22,103 nt of DNA. Source: a virus. Numbering within the stretch: the stretch's first letter is position 1; each line of letters starts with the position of its first letter. Of this stretch, positions 1-22,103 are shown piece by piece. Below the pieces are notes generated by a model, which did no database searches, was not told the DNA's origin, and saw nothing but the letters and a program-made list of their open reading frames with translations. The stretch covers positions 1 through 22,103 of the IMG/VR virus record IMGVR_UViG_2149837019_000031; one strand, written 5' to 3'. Made by a program: the position numbers and the translations under genes.

Positions 1-28
1 TAAAGAGGTTGATTATTGCGCGCGTAAA
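1..28. repeat. Terminal direct repeat or assembly overlap. Bases 1-28 equal 22076-22103, so the window is one closed 22,075-bp genome unit.
   Basis: taaagaggttgattattgcgcgcgtaaa is present at both window ends. The terL reading frame is continuous across the junction. Confidence 0.85.
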
Positions 29-14787: not shown

Positions 14788-14910
14788 TTATTTTAACTTA
14801 GTCGCTATATAATTCGATAAACTACGATCGGCTTGTTTAGCTTCCTCTAAAAGTTTTTCGTAAAGTTCGATCGGTATAGTGATAGTTACGGTTTTAGTTG
14901 TTTTTGACAT
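14788..14910 (-). CDS. Ribbon-helix-helix (CopG/Arc/MetJ-type) DNA-binding protein, 40 aa. Below the ORF-track size cut-off.
   Basis: Translated by hand as MSKTTKTVTITIPIELYEKLLEEAKQADRSLSNYIATKLK. It shows a beta-strand followed by two helices. The AGGAG SD overlaps the TAG of the upstream gene. Confidence 0.65.
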   Translation of the reverse strand: MSKTTKTVTITIPIELYEKLLEEAKQADRSLSNYIATKLK

Positions 14911-14921
14911 TTTTTTAACTC

Positions 14922-15596
14922 CTATTTGATTGATACCCTAGCCTTTTGAAAGATTTTAAGGCCTTTTATTTCGCGCACGCCTTCGCGTATAGCTTGGCGT
15001 ACGGCTTTATCGTTTAAAATAATAAATTCTTGCGGTACGGCCGAAATATCCACAAGCTCGAAATCCCACACTTTAGAAACTATATTATTTTCGGTTGATA
15101 AATTAACAACCTCGGCCTTTGCGGTTTGGTTAATAAGTTGGTTTTGCTTATCCTCTAAAGAGCTAACCATAGCGCGGGCGGTTATCGGATCATAATTTAA
15201 GGCTTGTTTTTTAACTTCCTCTAACTCTAAGGCTTGTTTTAATGCTAACTCCTCGGCTTGGCGTTTTGCTTCGGCTTCGGCTTCGGCGCGTCTTTTAAGT
15301 TCGTCGTTTAAATATTTATTCATTTTTTCGCGTATAATGGCGTCGGCTTCGGCTAATAGCGCAAGAGGTATATTATACTTATCCTCAAGTTTTTTAATAC
15401 CGTCTTTTAATGGTTTAAGATCGGCCGTTTTATTATCTTTAATTGTCTTAGTATATTGTTTAAGTTCTTTAAGTTTTGCGCCCGCTTGCTCGTAGGTAAC
15501 GCTATCGGCAATAACTACAGCGTTTAACGTTTCTAACCACGTCCTAGCTTGTAATTCCATAGGGCTAACTTGATTATATATGCTAATTTGATCCAT
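14922..15596 (-). CDS. Coiled-coil protein, possibly Sipho_Gp157-like and recombination-module associated. It is the only sizeable minus-strand gene.
   Basis: 224 aa with an AGGAGT SD 6 nt before the ATG. Central AEAEAEAKRQAEELALKQ coiled coil. The C-terminal VWDFELVDISAVPQEFI...AIREG segment resembles the Gp157 family C-terminus, with low certainty. Confidence 0.35.
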   Translation of the reverse strand: MDQISIYNQVSPMELQARTWLETLNAVVIADSVTYEQAGAKLKELKQYTKTIKDNKTADLKPLKDGIKKLEDKYNIPLALLAEADAIIREKMNKYLNDELKRRAEAEAEAKRQAEELALKQALELEEVKKQALNYDPITARAMVSSLEDKQNQLINQTAKAEVVNLSTENNIVSKVWDFELVDISAVPQEFIILNDKAVRQAIREGVREIKGLKIFQKARVSIK

Positions 15597-15630
15597 ATTA
15601 TATACTCCTAAAAAAGTTAATTACGATTTG

Positions 15631-15659
15631 CTTATAACATACTTATTTTAATTAGTCAA
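15631..15659 (-). promoter_or_regulatory. Leftward sigma70-type promoter for the coiled-coil/RHH operon
   Basis: On the minus strand, TTGACT (plus 15654-15659), a 17-nt spacer, then TATAAG (plus 15631-15636). Confidence 0.45.
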
Positions 15660-15664
15660 TATTT

Positions 15665-15678
15665 AAAATAATTATTTT
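15665..15678. promoter_or_regulatory. Perfect 14-bp palindrome AAAATAATTATTTT between the divergent -35 boxes. Candidate operator or UP element.
   Basis: The sequence is self-complementary. It lies 6 nt from each of the two -35 hexamers (between them, in the UP-element zone of both). Confidence 0.35.
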
Positions 15679-15684
15679 TTAGGG

Positions 15685-17121: not shown

Positions 17122-17528
17122 TGTTATACCGAGTTGCAGAGTTTGAAAAAACACCTAACGGCCAAAAATTTAAGCGTTTTAAATATTGCGGTTATAAATT
17201 GCTATGTAGCGGGCAACTCTATAAAGGAAACGTTAAAGCAAATACAACCGATAAACGCAAGGCTAACTATTGCGAGCTTAATTTAGGCGTCGGCCGTCCA
17301 GATGTAAACGGCGTAAATATCTACGAGAAGGATTTAGTATATAACAAGCGCGAAAAATTAACGGGCGTAATTCGTTACGATCCGAAAAAAGGCGCTTTTA
17401 TTATGTACGTTAAAAACGGGATCGTTACTATACCCTACTCTTTTTTGGATTGCTACGACGTTAGCCTAGAGGTATTAGGTAACGAGTACGAGCATACGGC
17501 CAAAAACAAATTATTTAAACGATATTAA
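17121..17528 (+). CDS. YopX-family protein
   Basis: The IYEKDLVY and C-terminal VLGNEYEH motifs resemble YopX (IYEGD...GNIYENPEL). The ATG overlaps the upstream TAA. The ORF-track start at 17100 is GTG. Confidence 0.45.
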   Translation: MLYRVAEFEKTPNGQKFKRFKYCGYKLLCSGQLYKGNVKANTTDKRKANYCELNLGVGRPDVNGVNIYEKDLVYNKREKLTGVIRYDPKKGAFIMYVKNGIVTIPYSFLDCYDVSLEVLGNEYEHTAKNKLFKRY

Positions 17529-17558
17529 AAAAATAATCAAAAATAATTAAAATAAGTA

Positions 17559-17587
17559 TTGACTAATTAAAAAATGGGTGCTATATG
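17559..17587 (+). promoter_or_regulatory. Strong early promoter with extended -10
   Basis: TTGACT (17559-17564), a 17-nt spacer, then TGcTATATG. It is embedded in a 33-bp element that is also present inverted at 15646-15678. Confidence 0.45.
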
Positions 17588-17620
17588 TAATTTTGTAATA
17601 ACAAAAAAGGAGTTAAAAAT

Positions 17621-17944
17621 ATGGAAAAAACATTAACAGAAAAACTATTAGATCTATCTACAGAGTTACAAAGAAAATTAAACGAGTTAAGCGAGGAGCG
17701 CGCCGAGTATCTTTTAGAAAAAAACGAGGACGAGTATTTTATATGTTATGATAGCGATAGCGTAGACGTTGGCGTAGGTATGCTAACGGTAAGGAGCGAA
17801 AAAATATTAGATGAAGAGCGCGCCGAAGAGGACGCTAAAGAGGAAATTATAACCGAGGTAGCTAACCTAGAGGATAGTTTTTATTATTTGCTAGAGGATA
17901 ATAAAATTAGTTCATTATTGGCCGACGTTTTGAGGAGTTTGTAA
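17621..17944 (+). CDS. Highly acidic small protein (107 aa, about 30 D/E against about 12 K/R). Candidate DNA-mimic or anti-restriction type protein.
   Basis: First gene after the strong promoter. Its TIR is identical to that of the exonuclease gene. Composition was counted by hand. Confidence 0.5.
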   Translation: MEKTLTEKLLDLSTELQRKLNELSEERAEYLLEKNEDEYFICYDSDSVDVGVGMLTVRSEKILDEERAEEDAKEEIITEVANLEDSFYYLLEDNKISSLLADVLRSL

Positions 17945-18033
17945 TATATTAGATATTAGTTATAAGGAAGCTATAGCAATAGCGATAATGTTAGACGCTT
18001 TATTTTTGTATGCTATTTGGTAAAGGTGGCGCT

Positions 18034-18282
18034 ATGGTAATATTAAAAGGATATGATAAGGGGCGCGAGGTTTGGGCGGTTGCTCACACCTACGGAAGCG
18101 GAGAAACGGCAGAAACTTTTTTTTGCTATTTAGATCCTAACGCGGACGTTTTACGAGAATATGAGAGGGCTAAAAATGTTTATACTAACAAAGGAAAAAA
18201 AGCCAGTAGATCTGGAAGGGTTTTTAATGACAAAGCGCGGACGGATCTATATTTACAGAGTGCAAAACGACCGAGAGATTAG
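18034..18282 (+). CDS. Hypothetical protein, frame A. Probably the N-terminal part of a disrupted or frameshifted gene.
   Basis: AAGGTGG SD 4 nt before ATG 18034. The first 56 codons look protein-like. The tail downstream of the A7 tract is basic and low in complexity. Confidence 0.3.
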   Translation: MVILKGYDKGREVWAVAHTYGSGETAETFFCYLDPNADVLREYERAKNVYTNKGKKASRSGRVFNDKARTDLYLQSAKRPRD

Positions 18283-18367
18283 TTTATTTAATTACGGCGT
18301 TATTGTGGAAAATTTAGCGGAGTTATGGGAAATTGTCGAGAAAATTAAAAACAGGCCTAGAGTATGA
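18176..18367 (+). CDS. Hypothetical protein, frame B. It overlaps frame A and contains A_AAA_AAG at 18196-18202.
   Basis: GAGAGG SD 7 nt before ATG 18176. Protein-like hydrophobic periodicity. Confidence 0.3.
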   Translation: MFILTKEKKPVDLEGFLMTKRGRIYIYRVQNDREISLFNYGVIVENLAELWEIVEKIKNRPRV

Positions 18368-18602
18368 GCGCAAAGATAACGGCGAGCGCGTTATAGTGCT
18401 TAGACATATAGACCTATGGGATTTAGTCTATTACATAGACGAAGTATTATTTTGTAATGCTATTAGCTACCCAGAATTTAGCGAAAAGTTTACAGCTACA
18501 GGAAGGCAAAATACAGCTATTAAAACTATTTTTAAGGATCAACATTTTGAGGAGATTAAACCCTATGATAATAGAAACAAGAAAAGACTTAATAAAATTT
18601 AG
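18333..18602 (+). CDS. Hypothetical protein, frame C. Only a TTG (18333) or GTG (18396) start is available, and it overlaps frame B.
   Basis: Protein-like from about 18351 (GLEYERKDNGERVIVLRHIDLWDLVYYIDEVLF...). No in-frame ATG. It is reachable from frame B by a +1 shift at the A5 tract 18347-18351. Confidence 0.3.
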   Translation: MSRKLKTGLEYERKDNGERVIVLRHIDLWDLVYYIDEVLFCNAISYPEFSEKFTATGRQNTAIKTIFKDQHFEEIKPYDNRNKKRLNKI

Positions 18603-18930
18603 AAAAAGCCTAAAACAAAGCAAGTGAGAATTTGCCGAAAATGTCGGTTATTCTTATAGTTATATTTGCCAAGTAGAGCGCGGGGCTATAGGATTTTATA
18701 CAGGGCTTAAAAATGCCGTTAATGGTTATAAAATACGCCTAGAGGCCTACGAAAAAGCTAACGGCGCCTATATTGAAACTATGGCGCGTTGTTATTGTGA
18801 TTGCTACGAGGATCACGTACACGAGCAAATAGAGCAAGAGGATAAAGAAGTTAATAGGATCCTTTATTGCTTCGCTTTAATTGCTTTTATTGCTATTGCG
18901 GGGGTTATCTTATGGATTTACAAAAGCTAG
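18565..18930 (+). pseudogene. XRE-family HTH regulator with a C-terminal transmembrane anchor. It is interrupted by an in-frame TGA at 18625-18627 (codon 21), so it is either a nonsense-inactivated or a readthrough-dependent regulator.
   Basis: Hand translation gives MIIETRKDLIKFRKSLKQSK*EFAENVGYSYSYICQVERG...ILYCFALIAFIAIAGVILWIYKS. The TGA sits inside helix 2 of a canonical HTH_XRE motif (consensus ..LSQEELA..GVS...IS.IERG). GAGGAG SD lies upstream. Confidence 0.5.
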
Positions 18931-19133
18931 TTAATCGTATGGCCGAACGCGAGGAGCGTATTATAAAAATGCGCTCCGAAGGAAAAAAGGCAACCATTAA
19001 ATTAACAGAGTTGTATTATCAACAAAAAATAGATATGTATAAACGTTTAAAAGAGGAGTTAAAATTATGCAAGACGCAGAGTTTACCGAATAAAACGAAG
19101 AAGCCCCCGCCTCTAAGGGCGAGCTTGTTTTAG
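18912..19133 (+). CDS. Small coiled-coil hypothetical protein (73 aa)
   Basis: GGGGG SD 7 nt upstream. The N-terminal 50 aa look protein-like, but the C-terminal 20 aa are low in complexity and overlap the 19067 start region. Confidence 0.3.
   Translation: MDLQKLVNRMAEREERIIKMRSEGKKATIKLTELYYQQKIDMYKRLKEELKLCKTQSLPNKTKKPPPLRASLF
19067..19093 (+). CDS. 8-codon ORF (MQDAEFTE) with a perfect TIR, terminated by TAA. The same frame then stays open through 19435.
   Basis: GAGGAGTTAAAATTATG at 19051-19069 matches the conserved TIR used by the other early genes. TAA at 19091-19093. Confidence 0.35.
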   Translation: MQDAEFTE

Positions 19134-19165
19134 TTGAAACGGTGGCCGAAGAGCCTAAAAACACT

Positions 19166-19435
19166 ATGGACGAGATCATAGAGGAAGCCGACGAAAAAAA
19201 TAAAAAGGCTATGATCGAGGATTTACAAGAGTTAGGCGAGAGCTACGAGTACGCCGAGAATCGATTAAAAGAGGCTAAATTAAGTATTAAAAGTATTTTA
19301 GAGGACGCTAAAGACCGCGGTATATCTAAAACAATGTTAGAGGCGTACGTTTCGCTTCGTCGTATGTCTACCTTAGGTAAAAAGGCTATTTTTGGCGCCG
19401 TTGTAGATGACGGCGAAACGGCTAAAGATGAATAG
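19166..19435 (+). CDS. Acidic hypothetical protein. The frame is open from 19094, with possible starts at GTG 19142 or ATG 19166. It may be the body of a gene whose true start is ATG 19067.
   Basis: Open frame of 114 codons from 19094 to 19435, in the same frame as the 19067 ATG. Acidic N-terminal region. No good SD of its own. Confidence 0.4.
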   Translation: MDEIIEEADEKNKKAMIEDLQELGESYEYAENRLKEAKLSIKSILEDAKDRGISKTMLEAYVSLRRMSTLGKKAIFGAVVDDGETAKDE

Positions 19436-19622
19436 CGAGCTAGGAGTAGATATTACCGTACGCAAAGACGTAATTAACGATTGCTTTACCGTTGTTATGT
19501 CTAACGGCTACGATACATTTAACGGCGCTATATCTTTAAAGGATCTAAAAAGATTAGGCGCAGATATTAACAATTTGATCGAAAGAGAAGAGGAAAAAAA
19601 TAAAAATGTTGGAAATATTTAA
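19407..19622 (+). CDS. Hypothetical protein (71 aa, with an alternative start at 19428)
   Basis: ORF with weak SDs at both candidate ATGs. Confidence 0.3.
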   Translation: MTAKRLKMNSELGVDITVRKDVINDCFTVVMSNGYDTFNGAISLKDLKRLGADINNLIEREEEKNKNVGNI

Positions 19623-20031
19623 AGAGGTTGACGAGTTAGTAGAGTTGGCTAGAGAGATCGAGCGCGACGCTATTATTACCGAGATTAAAAAAGAATTGGC
19701 CGAGGTTATGATATGGCACAAAAAGACCTTTAAAGACGCTACCGTAGGCGGGCAGTTGCTTAAACTCGAAGAGGAGTATAAAGAGCTTGCGGAAGCCGTA
19801 GAAAATGAAAACGGCGACGAAACATTTAAAGAGATTGCCGACGTTTTGATAGTATGCGCGGGCTTAGTTCGTTTAAATAGTATTATTGGTAAGGTAAATA
19901 TAGAGGCTACACTTGATAAAATGGAGATTAAGGAGCTTTATAATACTTTAGAGGCTATCCGCGCTAAAATGGAAGTAAACCGCGCCCGCAAGTGGGATAA
20001 ATTAAAAGACGGTAGATTTAAACATAAATAA
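19606..20031 (+). CDS. MazG-like nucleotide pyrophosphohydrolase
   Basis: KLEEEYKELAEAV...ETFKEIADVLIVCAGL and the C-terminal K..VNRARKW match the all-alpha MazG NTP-PPase pattern (EE.gEL...E.gDvL). Confidence 0.5.
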   Translation: MLEIFKEVDELVELAREIERDAIITEIKKELAEVMIWHKKTFKDATVGGQLLKLEEEYKELAEAVENENGDETFKEIADVLIVCAGLVRLNSIIGKVNIEATLDKMEIKELYNTLEAIRAKMEVNRARKWDKLKDGRFKHK

Positions 20032-20035
20032 ACAT

Positions 20036-20060
20036 AGGGGCGCTAACCCGCCCCTTTTTT
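20036..20060 (+). terminator. Rho-independent terminator
   Basis: AGGGGCG-ctaacc-CGCCCCT forms a perfect 7-bp GC stem. It is followed by TTTTT. Confidence 0.7.
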
Positions 20061-20072
20061 GGAGATCATAAT

Positions 20073-20357
20073 ATGAAAAATAGAAACCTTAACGCGGGCG
20101 ACGATTGGAAAACGCCGAGCGATTTATACGAAAAACTAAACCAAGAATTTAATTTTGATTTTGATCCAGATATTAACACTATGCCACGTTGCGACATAGA
20201 GGCCTTAAAAAGCGAAATAAAGCATTTAAAGGAGTTGCTTAAAGAGTGTAAACCTTACATAAGTTATAGTGTTAATAAAAAGAAATATCTTGGATTTACA
20301 CCACCAGAGGCGAATATTTTAACCAAAATAGACAACGCAATAGGAGAAAATAATTGA
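20073..20357 (+). CDS. ORF fusing an N-terminal fragment of a phage Dam-type N6-adenine methyltransferase motif to unrelated sequence (94 aa)
   Basis: DDWKTPSDLYEKLNQEFNFDFD matches the (D/E)EWxTPxxLFxxLxxEFxF N-terminal signature of the phage Dam family. No (D/N)PPY catalytic motif follows. GGAG SD 8 nt upstream. Confidence 0.45.
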   Translation: MKNRNLNAGDDWKTPSDLYEKLNQEFNFDFDPDINTMPRCDIEALKSEIKHLKELLKECKPYISYSVNKKKYLGFTPPEANILTKIDNAIGENN

Positions 20358-20602
20358 TTAAATCACAAGACGATTTAAACCAAGACGACGGAGTAGGCCG
20401 TACAATGACCTTATTAAAGGCTATAGAGCAATTAGAAAAAACAGAGGTAGAGCTTGAGAAGGTGGAAAAGCAATTAAAAATAGCAGTTGAGGCTTTAGAA
20501 GATATAGGTTTTTGTAAGACCTCAATATATCAAAACAGCCCTTTTAAATTAGTTTCTTGGGCAATAGACGCAATCAGTAAAATAAAGGAGTTAGATAAAT
20601 GA
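20354..20602 (+). CDS. Small coiled-coil hypothetical protein. TTG start, with an alternative ATG at 20405.
   Basis: AGGAG 7 nt upstream of TTG 20354, which overlaps the upstream TGA (TTGA). ATGA overlap at the 3' end. Confidence 0.35.
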   Translation: MIKSQDDLNQDDGVGRTMTLLKAIEQLEKTEVELEKVEKQLKIAVEALEDIGFCKTSIYQNSPFKLVSWAIDAISKIKELDK

Positions 20603-20832
20603 TCGAAGTAATATCTACATTTTTTGAAAGTTTAATAGAAACTTTTATAATGAGTTGCTTAGTTATAATATGCTTAATTTTAGGATTGTTAGGCTTTATG
20701 ATCTACCCTATTAAGAAAGCAAGGCTATTTTTGGGTAGGCAATTATACCGAGTAGCCGACACAATGGACTATTATTTAACAGAAACGCTAGTAAAAGACT
20801 ACGAAGAGGATAACAAAAATACGGGGGCTTAA
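20599..20832 (+). CDS. Small membrane protein (77 aa)
   Basis: AAGGAG with an 8-nt spacer. Hydrophobic segment CLVIICLILGLLGFMIY. Confidence 0.45.
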   Translation: MIEVISTFFESLIETFIMSCLVIICLILGLLGFMIYPIKKARLFLGRQLYRVADTMDYYLTETLVKDYEEDNKNTGA

Positions 20833-21329: not shown

Positions 21330-22103
21330 ATGGGCTTCGATTTTAATTTTAGCTTTTTTGGTGCTACGGGATCTACAAATTTATCTTTTTTGGATTTTGT
21401 AGAGCGTAGCGGGTACCCGAAGCCCTACCCTAAACAAATAGAGATGTACGATTTTGCTTTTAGTGGAGAAAATACCCGTATGATCCTAGGCGCCCGCGGT
21501 TATGGTAAGACGGACTATATAACAATTTTAGGCCTTGCCTATTCTATTTATAAGGATCCTAACTATACCGCTATATTGATAACCAAGGAAAGCGAGCGCG
21601 GTAAGGAGTTAGTAGCCGAGATAAAAGAGATATTAAATAAATTTTCGGTAAGATTTAAGAGTAAGGCCAAAAAAAAGATAATTGTAGAAGGTTGTACGGG
21701 TAAAGAGCCTAACCTTATAGCGCTAACGATCAGATCTAAAGGTTTACGCGGACGCCACCCTAAAAAAATCATAATGGACGATCCAATTACACCAGAGGAC
21801 GATAGCCAAGCCGAACGCCGTAGGGCTAAAAAGTGCTACGAGGAGCTATTAAAGCTAACTCAAAACGTACTTATCATAGGGCAACCCGTACACAAGTTAG
21901 ATCTTTACCAAGAATTAAGGACTAAAATTTTAACCCTTTGTGTAATCTACGGAGATATACCCGAATTAGACAAGGATTTAAACGCCTTGCGAGCTTCGGG
22001 CGTAAGTGAGGCCAGTATATCGGCTTCGTATTTTCTAAAGATCCTAGACGATAACACGTTACCACTTGCCAGTATTAAAGAGGTTGATTATTGCGCGCGT
22101 AAA
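21330..22103 (+). CDS. terL: Terminase large subunit, N-terminal ATPase part. It continues at position 29 of the window.
   Basis: ATG at 21330 directly after the terS TAA. Walker A-like LGARGYGKT and IIMDDP motifs. The ORF runs off the window end without a stop. It is absent from the ORF track only because no stop lies inside the window. Confidence 0.8.
   Translation, partial: MGFDFNFSFFGATGSTNLSFLDFVERSGYPKPYPKQIEMYDFAFSGENTRMILGARGYGKTDYITILGLAYSIYKDPNYTAILITKESERGKELVAEIKEILNKFSVRFKSKAKKKIIVEGCTGKEPNLIALTIRSKGLRGRHPKKIIMDDPITPEDDSQAERRRAKKCYEELLKLTQNVLIIGQPVHKLDLYQELRTKILTLCVIYGDIPELDKDLNALRASGVSEASISASYFLKILDDNTLPLASIKEVDYCARK
22076..22103. repeat. Second copy of the 28-nt terminal repeat
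   Basis: Identical to positions 1-28. Confidence 0.85.

What the first reader, a model, noticed from the sequence alone, without database searches (positions are those of the whole stretch)
18565..18930. In-frame TGA inside the recognition helix region of a membrane-anchored XRE-family regulator
The ORF has a good SD and encodes a textbook HTH_XRE motif followed by a C-terminal TM helix. Codon 21 is TGA (18625-18627), exactly where a polar residue such as Q, E or R normally sits (LKQSK*EFAENVGYSYSYICQVERG). Elsewhere in this genome TGA is used as a real stop. Seven of nine TGA stops lie in ATGA/GTGA/TTGA start-stop overlaps, and no other large gene carries an internal TGA, so genome-wide recoding is unlikely. 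The remaining explanations are a nonsense mutation that inactivates the only repressor-like regulator, which would make this a virulent derivative, or low-level programmed readthrough used as an expression valve. The genome also lacks an integrase.
Basis: partly seen in the sequence, partly recalled or inferred. Interest (0 to 1): 0.7.

Follow-up and report, generated by a model that had tools for sequence, protein, structure and literature searches.

The report
Real nonsense mutation in phage regulator
The in-frame TGA is a genuine single C-to-T nonsense mutation (Arg21 to stop) that knocks out a small membrane-tethered DNA-binding protein in one clonal lineage of a 22-kb human-gut phage; it is an ordinary loss-of-function allele of a gene that this phage family loses repeatedly, not recoding or programmed readthrough.

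Summary
Codon 21 of ORF 18565-18930 is TGA (18625-18627). It is not an assembly error: four other contigs from separate runs and assemblers are 100% identical to the window and carry it. All 16 non-clonal relatives have CGA (Arg) there, so this is one C-to-T change at 18625. The nearest intact allele differs only by K6R and R21stop.

The code is standard: 6,502 sense codons, 62 TGG, no other in-frame TGA, no tRNA genes, and 9 TGA terminators conserved in relatives.

The intact protein is an XRE-type helix-turn-helix with a C-terminal tail-anchor membrane helix. It is confined to this phage group. The stop sits at the start of helix 2, not in the recognition helix.

The same gene is broken independently in five other lineages: TAA at codon 17, two frameshifts, a double deletion and a deletion-fusion. 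No other gene in about 20 related loci carries a stop or frameshift, apart from a second lesion in this window (TAA at 19091-19093, made by a 6-nt deletion).

The "virulent derivative" idea is not supported. The whole family lacks an integrase, no prophage copy was found, the gene lies inside a rightward early operon, and an Arc-like regulator also exists. Best reading: a dispensable accessory gene with a null, at most leaky, allele. Interest is low to moderate.

The parts
18565..18930 (+). Disrupted gene for a 121-aa tail-anchored XRE-type HTH protein. It is intact in relatives.
   Evidence: Translation. 15 full-length homologues at 64-97% identity. HTH_3 hit in 15 of 15 homologues. AF2 model plus Foldseek hits to XRE HTH proteins.
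18625..18627 (+). Premature TGA at codon 21. It is derived from CGA (Arg) by a C-to-T change at 18625, at the N-terminus of HTH helix 2.
   Evidence: 16 of 16 non-clonal relatives have CGA. Four other contigs that are 100% identical to the window have TGA. Helix boundaries come from the model.
18565..18624 (+). Residual 20-codon reading frame, the only product expected without readthrough. GAGGAG lies 10 nt upstream.
18655..18681 (+). Codons 31-39, the predicted recognition helix (SYSYICQVE). It lies downstream of the stop and is therefore not made.
   Evidence: AF2 secondary structure. Alignment to the Phi106 repressor, SinR and C.BclI HTH.
18859..18918 (+). Codons 99-118, the C-terminal transmembrane tail anchor (ILYCFALIAFIAIAGVILWI). 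Only three residues follow it.
   Evidence: Kyte-Doolittle mean of 2.67 over 19 residues. A hydrophobic tail is also present in the distant family members P0051-P0053.
18333..18602 (+). Upstream 89-aa ORF of unknown function. It overlaps the start of the HTH gene by 38 nt and is intact.
18912..19133 (+). 73-aa ORF, the homologue of a 60-aa coiled-coil gene. It is extended by 13 codons because the 6-nt deletion removed its TAG stop.
   Evidence: Alignment to 8 relatives. Translation. The exact protein is found on 14 contigs.
19067..19435 (+). Homologue of a 123-aa acidic protein with a tentatively GapR-like domain. It is interrupted at codon 9 by TAA (19091-19093), which was created by a 6-nt deletion.
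   Evidence: hhalign against the PF10073-bearing protein in the same slot of L017 gives E 1.3e-4, probability 54%.
19166..19435 (+). Residual 89-aa ORF. It starts at the invariant Met36 and holds the whole conserved, folded part of the 123-aa protein.
   Evidence: Alignment A7: residues 1-35 are variable and Met36 is invariant. AF2: residues 1-34 are disordered, with helices 35-84 and 89-103. It is called as a gene in the clonal contigs.
17539..17590 (+). Promoter-like element (TTGACT, 17 nt, TATATG) in front of the operon that holds the gene. It is 79% identical, in inverted orientation, to the leftward promoter region at 15628-15679.
   Evidence: Inverted repeat I1. Sequences read directly.
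20036..20055 (+). Terminator-like GC-rich hairpin followed by a T run. It is the likely end of the operon that holds the gene.
14791..14910 (-). 40-aa Arc/CopG-type ribbon-helix-helix gene, a second regulator candidate in the genome.
   Evidence: Pfam RHH_5, E 2e-5. PHROG 582 'Arc-like repressor', E 1.1e-4.

Best explanation
The window is a complete, circularly assembled genome of about 22.08 kb from an uncultured human-gut tailed phage.

In this one clonal lineage, a single C-to-T transition at 18625 turned codon 21 (CGA, Arg) of an early-operon gene into TGA. The gene normally makes a 121-residue protein with three parts. The N-terminal part is an XRE/Cro-C1-type helix-turn-helix. It continues into one long helix that carries a Cys/His-rich motif. 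It ends in a transmembrane tail anchor, so the DNA-binding head would be held at the inner face of the cell membrane (the topology is inferred).

Termination at codon 21 leaves a 20-residue peptide that lacks helix 2, the recognition helix and the anchor. The allele is therefore a null. At most it is a weak hypomorph, through the ordinary, unprogrammed leakiness of UGA.

The phage evidently propagates without the protein, and the family has lost or truncated the gene several times. It is therefore a dispensable accessory function rather than an essential regulator or the lysogeny repressor.

Shown here: the mutation, its direction, its reproducibility, the standard genetic code, the fold class, and the recurrent disruption. 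Inferred: loss of function, dispensability, and membrane topology. The protein's biological role is unknown. My guess, unproven, is a membrane-tethered regulator or DNA tether that works with the neighbouring GapR-like protein.
For: - **Sequence and frame:**
- **Direction of the change:** 16 of 16 relatives have CGA at the aligned codon. Homologues have R, K, E or L there.
- **Nearest intact allele:** P0021 differs only by K6R and R21stop.
- **Reproducibility:** the TGA is present in 4 further contigs from different runs and assemblers, each with no mismatch to the window.
- **Standard code:** 62 TGG against 0 TGA among 6,502 sense codons. The 9 TGA stops are conserved as stops in relatives, one of them as TAA. 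No tRNA genes are present.
- **No recoding signal:** no Rfam match. The hairpin around the UGA is not significant, z = -1.4.
- **Fold:** AF2 pLDDT is 79.8. The top Foldseek hits are all XRE HTH proteins, for example the Phi106 repressor at rmsd 1.4 A over 51 residues. The best PDB sequence hit is the same repressor, E 7.8e-4.
- **Independent disruptions of the same gene:** TAA at codon 17 in L027; a +1 T frameshift at codon 78 in L009, L026 and P0033; an 82-aa truncated form, P0015; -5 and -2 nt deletions in L025; and a deletion-fusion in L023/L024.
- **Background:** no stop or frameshift occurs in any other gene across about 20 loci, except the window's second lesion.
Against: - The TGA lineage is strictly clonal in the data, with 0 SNPs over 20 kb. 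There has been no evolutionary time in which to see decay, or conservation, of the reading frame after the stop. All three private changes lie at or before the stop.
- UGA is the leakiest stop codon. About 6% readthrough was reported for one B. subtilis reporter, as cited in PMC7918605. Some full-length protein, probably with Trp21 at a solvent-exposed and variable position, may therefore still be made.
- The contigs that share the allele may come from one cohort, or even from the same people (MetaHIT-type accessions). Wide spread of the allele is not proven.
- Neither the host nor the function of the protein is known.
Confidence: 0.8

Rival explanations
1. The loss is adaptive rather than neutral. 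The tail-anchored HTH protein, possibly together with the GapR-like protein two genes downstream, is costly or is sensed by a host defence in some hosts. Null alleles are therefore repeatedly selected.
For: - Six independent disruptive events hit this one gene, against none in the other genes of about 20 loci.
- Both loci reached through the neighbouring gene, without regard to this gene's state, are disrupted.
- The window clone also carries a lesion in the GapR-like gene.
- The two proteins are linked by fusions: the natural deletion-fusion P0034 and the XRE protein of Dulem virus 29, which joins an HTH to a homologue of that domain, BLASTP E 2e-12.
- The window clone accounts for 8-14 of the roughly 120 family contigs on record.
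Against: - Most of my loci were fetched through this gene or its truncated forms, so the count is biased. The unbiased sample is n = 2.
- About 98 distinct intact alleles exist. A gene under weak purifying selection would show the same pattern.
- The second lesion may be harmless, because the residual ORF starts at the invariant Met36 and keeps the whole conserved domain.
Confidence: 0.2
2. The UGA is kept as a leaky stop, an 'expression valve'. Near-cognate tRNA-Trp reads it at low frequency, giving a small and functionally sufficient amount of full-length protein.
For: - UGA is the leakiest stop in bacteria, and in-frame stops under purifying selection have been reported (PMC7918605).
- Position 21 is variable (R, K, E, L) and lies on the first turn of a helix, so Trp could be tolerated.
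- No further damage has accumulated downstream of the stop.
Against: - No relative has a stop at this codon: 16 of 16 have CGA.
- The lineage is clonal, so the intact downstream frame carries no information.
- Another lineage uses TAA at codon 17, and others use frameshifts or deletions, which readthrough cannot rescue.
- No stimulatory RNA structure is detectable.
- The context is UGA-G after a Lys codon. From my own knowledge of E. coli termination contexts, this is not a weak context; I did not test it here.
Confidence: 0.07
3. Sequencing or assembly artefact: the true base at 18625 is C.
For: It is a single-base difference from all relatives. Read data could not be inspected.
Against: The same base appears in five separately assembled contigs: the window itself from JGI/IMG, plus Logan, metaSPAdes-style NODE and MEGAHIT-style k127 records from at least four accessions. 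All are otherwise identical. No gene caller called a 121-aa product in any of them.
Confidence: 0.02
4. TGA is a sense codon here, either through an alternative genetic code (table 4 Trp, or table 25 Gly) or as selenocysteine.
For: Stop-codon recoding is known in human-gut phages (PMC7886860, PMC9523058). A modest hairpin overlaps the UGA.
Against: - There is one TGA in 6,500 sense codons against 62 TGG. Nine TGA terminators are conserved in relatives, and seven sit in 4-nt start-stop overlaps.
- No suppressor tRNA is present.
- Relatives have Arg, Lys, Glu or Leu at this position, never Cys or Trp.
- The hairpin has z = -1.4 and there is no Rfam match.
Confidence: 0.01

Closest known systems
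XRE / Cro-C1 family helix-turn-helix proteins (Pfam HTH_3, PF01381), e.g. 434 and P22 c2 repressors, SinR, C-proteins of R-M systems, HigA, Aca2, SPbeta-like phage Phi106 repressor
   Same: The N-terminal 45 or so residues have the same fold and sequence signature. HTH_3 hits occur in 15 of 15 intact homologues. Foldseek gives rmsd 1.3-1.5 A over 47-51 residues. The best PDB sequence hit is the Phi106 repressor, E 7.8e-4.
   Different: - After three helices the domain runs straight into one long helix of about 75 residues that ends in a membrane anchor.
- There is no peptidase or other known oligomerisation domain.
- The gene is inside an early operon, not in a divergent immunity position.
- The copy in this window is truncated at codon 21.
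Membrane-bound XRE-type proteins such as BcrR of Enterococcus faecalis (XRE HTH plus four TM helices) and RodZ (XRE-like HTH plus one TM helix). These are recalled from my own knowledge and were not tested here.
   Same: A cytoplasmic N-terminal XRE-type HTH joined to membrane-spanning segment(s).
   Different: - No sequence relationship was detected beyond the generic HTH. The exhaustive profile search found only 5 clusters of true relatives, all small proteins with the same HTH plus hydrophobic-tail layout.
- The protein has a single tail anchor with 3 extracytoplasmic residues, so there is no sensing domain outside the membrane.
- It is phage-encoded.
Ordinary nonsense (null or leaky UGA) alleles in bacterial and phage genes, as surveyed by Belinky et al. 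2021 (PMC7918605)
   Same: A single-base change of a sense codon to an in-frame stop inside an otherwise intact gene. UGA may allow a trace of readthrough.
   Different: There is no evidence here that the stop is conserved or that the downstream frame is maintained by selection. The lineage is clonal.
Stop-codon recoding in gut phages (code 15 in crAss-like phages; code 4 in other gut phages; PMC7886860, PMC9523058)
   Same: An in-frame stop codon in a human-gut phage genome.
   Different: There is a single occurrence, no suppressor tRNA, and TGA is used and conserved as the terminator of 9 genes.
Dulem virus 29 (PP511380.1) 'HTH XrE protein', and Bdellovibrio phage phi1402 as the nearest cultured relative of the phage
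   Same: - Dulem virus 29 shares the genome layout and has a terminase 58% identical to that of this family.
- Its XRE protein joins an HTH to a domain homologous to this family's 123-aa protein, E 2e-12.
   Different: - The Dulem protein has no membrane anchor and lies at a different place in the early region.
- tblastn with the tail-anchored protein finds nothing in 50,697 phage records.

Membership tests
XRE / Cro-C1 HTH family (PF01381) | Significant match to the HTH_3 profile | tested here: met
   15 of 15 intact homologues match, best E 1.5e-6. The window allele with Arg restored scores only 13.9 bits, below the 23-bit cut-off. Membership therefore rests on the family, not on this copy.
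XRE / Cro-C1 HTH family (PF01381) | Helix-turn-helix fold superposable on solved XRE proteins | tested here: met
   AF2 model of the intact relative P0001 has pLDDT 88-92 over residues 1-60. The top 50 Foldseek PDB hits are all XRE-type HTH proteins, with probability 0.9-1.0 and rmsd 1.3-2 A over 47-55 residues. E-values are weak, 0.06-0.4.
XRE / Cro-C1 HTH family (PF01381) | Sequence-specific DNA binding | not testable with these tools
   No operator was identified. A 52-nt element shared by two promoter regions is only a candidate.
Tail-anchored membrane protein | A single hydrophobic helix of about 20 residues at the extreme C-terminus | tested here: met
   Residues 99-118 have a Kyte-Doolittle mean of 2.67, and 3 residues follow. 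The feature is conserved in P0051-P0053, whose profile matches cover only positions 1-76 to 1-92, mainly the N-terminal region. Membrane insertion itself was not tested.
Nonsense (loss-of-function) allele | Sense codon at the homologous position in relatives, one base away from the stop | tested here: met
   CGA in 16 of 16 relatives; TGA in the window.
Nonsense (loss-of-function) allele | Real in the DNA, not an assembly error | tested here: met
   Four further contigs from different accessions and assemblers carry it. Read-level support could not be inspected.
Nonsense (loss-of-function) allele | No alternative start that would rescue the functional domain | tested here: met
   The first in-frame ATG/GTG/TTG after the stop is Met73 at 18781, which lies beyond the HTH.
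Alternative genetic code (table 4 or 25) phage | Many in-frame TGA codons across genes, with TGA not used as a terminator | tested here: not met
   There is 1 in-frame TGA against 62 TGG. Nine TGA terminators are conserved in relatives.
Alternative genetic code (table 4 or 25) phage | Phage-encoded suppressor tRNA | tested here: not met
   ARAGORN finds no tRNA genes.
Selenoprotein gene | SECIS hairpin after the UGA, and Cys at the position in homologues | tested here: not met
   No Rfam match. The hairpin is not better than shuffled sequences, z = -1.4. Homologues have R, K, E or L.
Programmed stop-codon readthrough | The stop codon is conserved among relatives, with a conserved coding frame beyond it | tested here: not met
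   No relative has the stop. The only genomes that share it are identical clones.
Programmed stop-codon readthrough | Measurable readthrough in the host | not testable with these tools
   This needs a reporter assay or proteomics. The host is unknown.
Temperate-phage immunity (CI-like) repressor | Lysogeny module: integrase or other maintenance genes, a divergently transcribed repressor, and prophage copies in host genomes | tested here: not met
   No integrase or recombinase family is found in any gene of the window or its relatives. No relative is found in 185,579 species-representative genomes. The gene is co-directional within an early operon.

The most novel reading that the evidence does not exclude
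The tail-anchored XRE protein and the GapR-like protein two genes downstream form one functional module, as suggested by natural fusions of the two in a deletion variant and in Dulem virus 29. Under this reading the gut phage family sheds the module repeatedly under selection. Possible reasons are that a host defence senses it, or that it governs a non-integrative carrier state whose loss gives obligately lytic variants. The window clone, which has stops in both genes, would then be a successful escape variant.
Probability: 0.15. Interest if true: 0.55.

Novelty: new member of a known kind. Interest (0 to 1): 0.25.

Why it matters
For genome annotation, this is a clean worked example. An in-frame TGA in a metagenomic phage can be settled as a true null allele, rather than recoding, readthrough or error. 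Three checks did it: comparison with near relatives, use of independent assemblies, and a test of the genetic code on the genome's other genes.

Biologically, the stop itself is ordinary. The mildly interesting by-products are:
- A small, previously undescribed family of tail-anchored XRE proteins confined to a group of 22-25-kb gut phages.
- A link by gene fusion between that family and a neighbouring, possibly GapR-like, DNA-binding protein.
- The observation that this gene alone is repeatedly inactivated in nature. That marks it as an accessory function, possibly conditionally costly, and worth testing once a host is found.

Tried and rejected
- **DNA similarity of 17500-20100 to 50,697 phage records:** no match. 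**tblastn of the intact protein against the same records:** no match.
- **Exact search for the TGA allele** in IMG/VR and in the JGI metagenome collection: no match. The allele was found instead through a window-specific neighbouring protein.
- **Prophage search** in species-representative genomes: none, so no host could be assigned.
- **Pfam and PHROG on the window protein with W or X at position 21:** no hit.
- **Rfam on 18000-19600:** only chance-level matches. **Folding of 18616-18700:** a hairpin that includes the UGA, but z = -1.4. SECIS or a readthrough stimulator is therefore rejected.
- **Exact look-up of the hypothetical revertant (R21) and W21 proteins:** neither is in the 15-billion-protein collection, so the immediate ancestor is unsampled.
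- **HigB-HigA-like toxin-antitoxin reading** of the overlapping upstream 89-aa ORF plus the HTH gene: considered and dropped, because there is no family match for the upstream ORF.
- **Rescue by frameshifting or reinitiation:** rejected. I saw no slippery motif at AGC AAG TGA on reading the sequence, and the first in-frame start after the stop is Met73.
- **Structure and PDB searches for the 123-aa protein:** no hits. Its GapR-like assignment rests only on one hhalign result (E 1.3e-4, probability 54%) and on the fact that a PF10073 gene occupies the same slot in other lineages.
- **Literature search for membrane-anchored XRE proteins in phages:** nothing relevant.
- **Clustering of window-private substitutions:** 9 in 18501-19000, against about 0.5% genome-wide (76 of 15,243 positions). 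This is driven by one 11-nt patch and was not pursued as hypermutation.
Full report
**1. The observation**

ORF 18565-18930 translates as MIIETRKDLIKFRKSLKQSK*EFAENVGYSYSYICQVERG...ILYCFALIAFIAIAGVILWIYKS*. The internal stop is TGA at 18625-18627, and GAGGAG lies 10 nt before the ATG.

The window begins and ends with the same 28 bases, so it is a circular assembly of about 22,075 bp and a complete genome. It has no tRNA genes and a GC content of about 38%.

**2. The genetic code**

- In 46 called genes there are 6,502 sense codons. Of these, 62 are TGG and none is TGA.
- Nine genes end in TGA.
- Every one of these TGA terminators is conserved as TGA in the relatives that align there. In one case a relative has TAA instead.
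- TGA is therefore a stop codon in this phage, and the TGA in the regulator gene is a singular event.

**3. Relatives and the direction of the change**

- A protein search found 15 homologues of 120-121 residues at 64-97% identity. They carry R, K or E at position 21. More distant family members carry R, E or L.
- The DNA of 16 non-clonal related contigs has CGA at the aligned codon. The window therefore differs by one C-to-T transition at 18625.
- The nearest intact allele, P0021, is found on 10-13 contigs. It differs from the window's conceptual product only by K6R and R21stop.
- Within the gene, the changes private to the window are nt 17 (K6R), nt 30 (synonymous) and nt 61 (the stop). None is private after the stop.
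- The exact Arg21 revertant is not in the 15-billion-protein collection.

**4. Not an artefact**

- The 73-aa protein that only this lineage encodes (see section 7) is found on 14 contigs.
- Four of them were fetched:
  - Logan ERR011169, 22,105 bp
  - ENA ERZ1303981, a NODE-type contig of 22,130 bp at 14.7x coverage
  - ENA ERZ916482, from ERR321143, k127-type
  - ENA ERZ501706
- All four carry the TGA and match the window with no mismatch over up to 20 kb.
- The window itself is a JGI/IMG contig.
- The base is therefore real in the DNA. The lineage is strictly clonal in the data, and the accessions may come from overlapping cohorts, so wide epidemiological spread is not shown.

**5. What the intact gene encodes**

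- All 15 homologues match Pfam HTH_3, best E 1.5e-6. The window allele with Arg restored reaches only 13.9 bits, so 'textbook' overstates it.
- An AlphaFold2 model of P0001, built with 14 sequences, has a mean pLDDT of 79.8. It has helices 6-15, 20-27 and 31-39, and one long helix 46-120.
- Its best PDB matches are all XRE-type HTH proteins: HigA, the phage Phi106 repressor (rmsd 1.4 A over 51 residues), Aca2, C-proteins, 434 and P22 c2 repressors, and SinR. The best PDB sequence match is the Phi106 repressor, E 7.8e-4.
- Residues 99-118 form a strongly hydrophobic segment (Kyte-Doolittle mean 2.67) followed by only three residues. This makes the protein tail-anchored.
- Codon 21 is on the first turn of helix 2, not in the recognition helix (31-39).
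- An exhaustive profile search of 1.84 billion representatives found only five clusters of true relatives. The three new ones are small proteins with the same HTH plus hydrophobic-tail layout. The family is narrow and specific to this phage group.

**6. Genomic setting and lifestyle**

- The nearest database phages are Dulem virus 29, a lemur-gut metagenome phage with a terminase 58% identical to that of this family, and the Bdellovibrio phages phi1402 and MAC3UK (38%).
- All genes but two are on the plus strand.
- The gene lies in a run of small early genes between a promoter-like element at 17539-17590 and a strong terminator-like hairpin at 20036-20055.
- No gene of the window or of its relatives matches an integrase or recombinase family.
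- No relative of the protein was found in 185,579 species-representative bacterial genomes.
- A second regulator candidate exists: a 40-aa Arc/CopG-type RHH gene at 14791-14910 on the minus strand.
- The absence of an integrase is therefore a property of the whole family, including members with the intact gene. The 'virulent derivative' idea has no support.

**7.

- Relative to all relatives, the window has a 6-nt deletion at about 19091.
- The deletion creates TAA at codon 9 (19091-19093) of the homologue of a 123-aa gene (19067-19435).
- It also removes the TAG of the preceding 60-aa gene, which now runs to 19133 and encodes 73 aa.
- In the 123-aa family, residues 1-35 are variable and predicted to be disordered. 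Met36 is invariant and the conserved helical domain follows it.
- The residual ORF 19166-19435 starts at that Met, so this lesion may be tolerated.
- In other lineages the same slot holds a 95-aa protein with a Pfam GapR_DNA-bd domain. hhalign relates the two weakly (E 1.3e-4, probability 54%). PDB sequence and fold searches gave nothing.

**8. Recurrent disruption of the HTH gene**

Independent events in other lineages:
- **L027**, a more divergent lineage: CAA to TAA at codon 17.
- **L009, L026 and P0033** (GenBank DAS78823.1): a +1 T at codon 78, giving a 78-aa anchorless product.
- **P0015:** an 82-aa form truncated at about the same place.
- **L025:** -5 and -2 nt deletions, giving 53 aa.
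- **L023/L024 (P0034):** a deletion that fuses residues 1-82 in frame to the C-terminal half of the 123-aa protein.

L026 and L027 were reached through the upstream neighbour gene, that is, without regard to the state of this gene. Both are disrupted.

In contrast, a tblastn screen of all genes across about 20 non-redundant loci found no stop or frameshift in any other gene, apart from the window's second lesion. My sample is biased towards this gene, and about 98 distinct intact alleles exist. The safe conclusion is dispensability. Adaptive loss remains only a possibility.

**9. A link between the two hit genes**

- The 'HTH XrE protein' of Dulem virus 29 is an XRE HTH joined to a domain homologous to residues 30-96 of the 123-aa protein (38% identity, E 2e-12).
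- The P0034 deletion variant produces the same architecture.
- This is Rosetta-stone-type evidence that the HTH protein and the GapR-like protein act together. The window clone carries stops in both.

**10. Readthrough, selenocysteine and reinitiation**

- No Rfam family matches.
- The hairpin that includes the UGA is not better than shuffled sequences, z = -1.4.
- Homologues never have Cys or Trp at the site.
- The first in-frame start codon after the stop is Met73, beyond the HTH.
- Passive leakiness of UGA is a general property. About 6% was reported for one B. subtilis reporter, as cited in PMC7918605. A trace of full-length protein therefore cannot be excluded.
- Nothing indicates a programmed signal, and other lineages kill the gene with TAA or indels.

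**11. Verdict**

The finding is real and is explained. It is a genuine CGA-to-TGA nonsense allele that truncates a dispensable, phage-specific, tail-anchored XRE-type protein after 20 residues, in one clonal lineage of a human-gut phage.

It is not recoding, selenocysteine, programmed readthrough or an assembly error. It gives no evidence for a temperate-to-virulent switch.

The stop itself is ordinary. The side observations are modestly interesting leads: the narrow tail-anchored XRE family, its fusion-supported link to a possibly GapR-like neighbour, and its repeated natural inactivation.

Noticed in passing
window 1-28 and 22076-22103: The first and last 28 bases are identical, so the window is a circularly closed assembly of about 22,075 bp. 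The terminase gene (21330-22103) continues at 2-487.
   Followed up: yes
window 19067-19435 (TAA at 19091-19093); 18912-19133: A 6-nt deletion relative to all relatives puts a TAA at codon 9 of the 123-aa gene homologue. It also removes the stop of the preceding 60-aa gene, extending it to 73 aa. The residual ORF 19166-19435 starts at an invariant Met and keeps the conserved domain.
   Followed up: yes
window 18964-18974: A patch of 6 substitutions private to this lineage lies within 11 nt of the 60/73-aa gene (IKSIRS becomes IIKMRS). All 8 aligned relatives agree with each other there. It looks like a multi-nucleotide event or a tiny recombination tract from an unsampled lineage.
   Followed up: partly
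window 15628-15679 (minus strand) and 17539-17590 (plus strand): A 52-nt element, 79% identical, is shared by two promoter regions. One is the leftward promoter of the 224-aa plus RHH operon. The other stands in front of the operon that holds the HTH gene. Both contain TTGACTAATTAAAA. It is a candidate common operator or UP element.
   Followed up: partly
L014 (Dulem virus 29, PP511380.1) 21969-22391: The annotated 'HTH XrE protein' is a fusion of an XRE HTH with a domain homologous to this family's stand-alone 123-aa protein (38% identity over 68 residues, E 2e-12).
   Followed up: yes
L023 4001-4432 and L024 515-946 (protein P0034): A natural in-frame deletion fuses residues 1-82 of the HTH protein to the C-terminal half of the 123-aa protein. 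It removes the membrane anchor and the whole 60-aa gene. It is seen in two runs, SRR25159599 and SRR25159600.
   Followed up: yes
L027 2730-3086 (OJMM01005454.1): A more divergent lineage carries an independent nonsense mutation in the same gene: CAA to TAA at codon 17, four codons before the window's stop.
   Followed up: yes
L009 3125-3491, L026 2730-3096, protein P0033; L025 2094-2460: There are further independent disruptions of the same gene. One is a +1 T in TTATTGT at codon 78, which gives a 78-aa anchorless HTH protein. The other is -5 nt and -2 nt deletions that give a 53-aa product.
   Followed up: yes
L017 9067-9354, L018 10505-10792, L021 6199-6486: In some lineages the slot of the 123-aa gene holds a 95-aa protein with a Pfam GapR_DNA-bd (PF10073) domain. 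hhalign relates the two only weakly (E 1.3e-4).
   Followed up: partly
window 20073-20832 versus L002 3466-4236, L003 2516-3187, L015 11512-12183: Relatives carry an N6/N4 DNA methyltransferase after the MazG-like gene. The window has three small ORFs there instead (94, 82 and 77 aa). The first has a weak match to the N-terminus of Dam.
   Followed up: no
window 18790-18816 (codons 76-84): A Cys/His-rich motif CYC(D/N)x(Y/C)(E/D)D(H/Q), nearly invariant in the family, lies between the HTH and the membrane anchor. It may be a metal or redox site. Two members give weak zf-LITAF-like hits.
   Followed up: no
L015 10846-11469: In one relative the 71-aa gene and the MazG-like gene are fused into a single 207-aa ORF.
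   Followed up: no
window 14922-15596 (minus strand): A 224-aa protein is transcribed leftward together with the Arc-like RHH gene. Its only match is a PHROG labelled 'exonuclease' (E 3.6e-12). It is 100% conserved at the protein level between the window and L007, and its role (recombination or regulation) is unclear.
   Followed up: no
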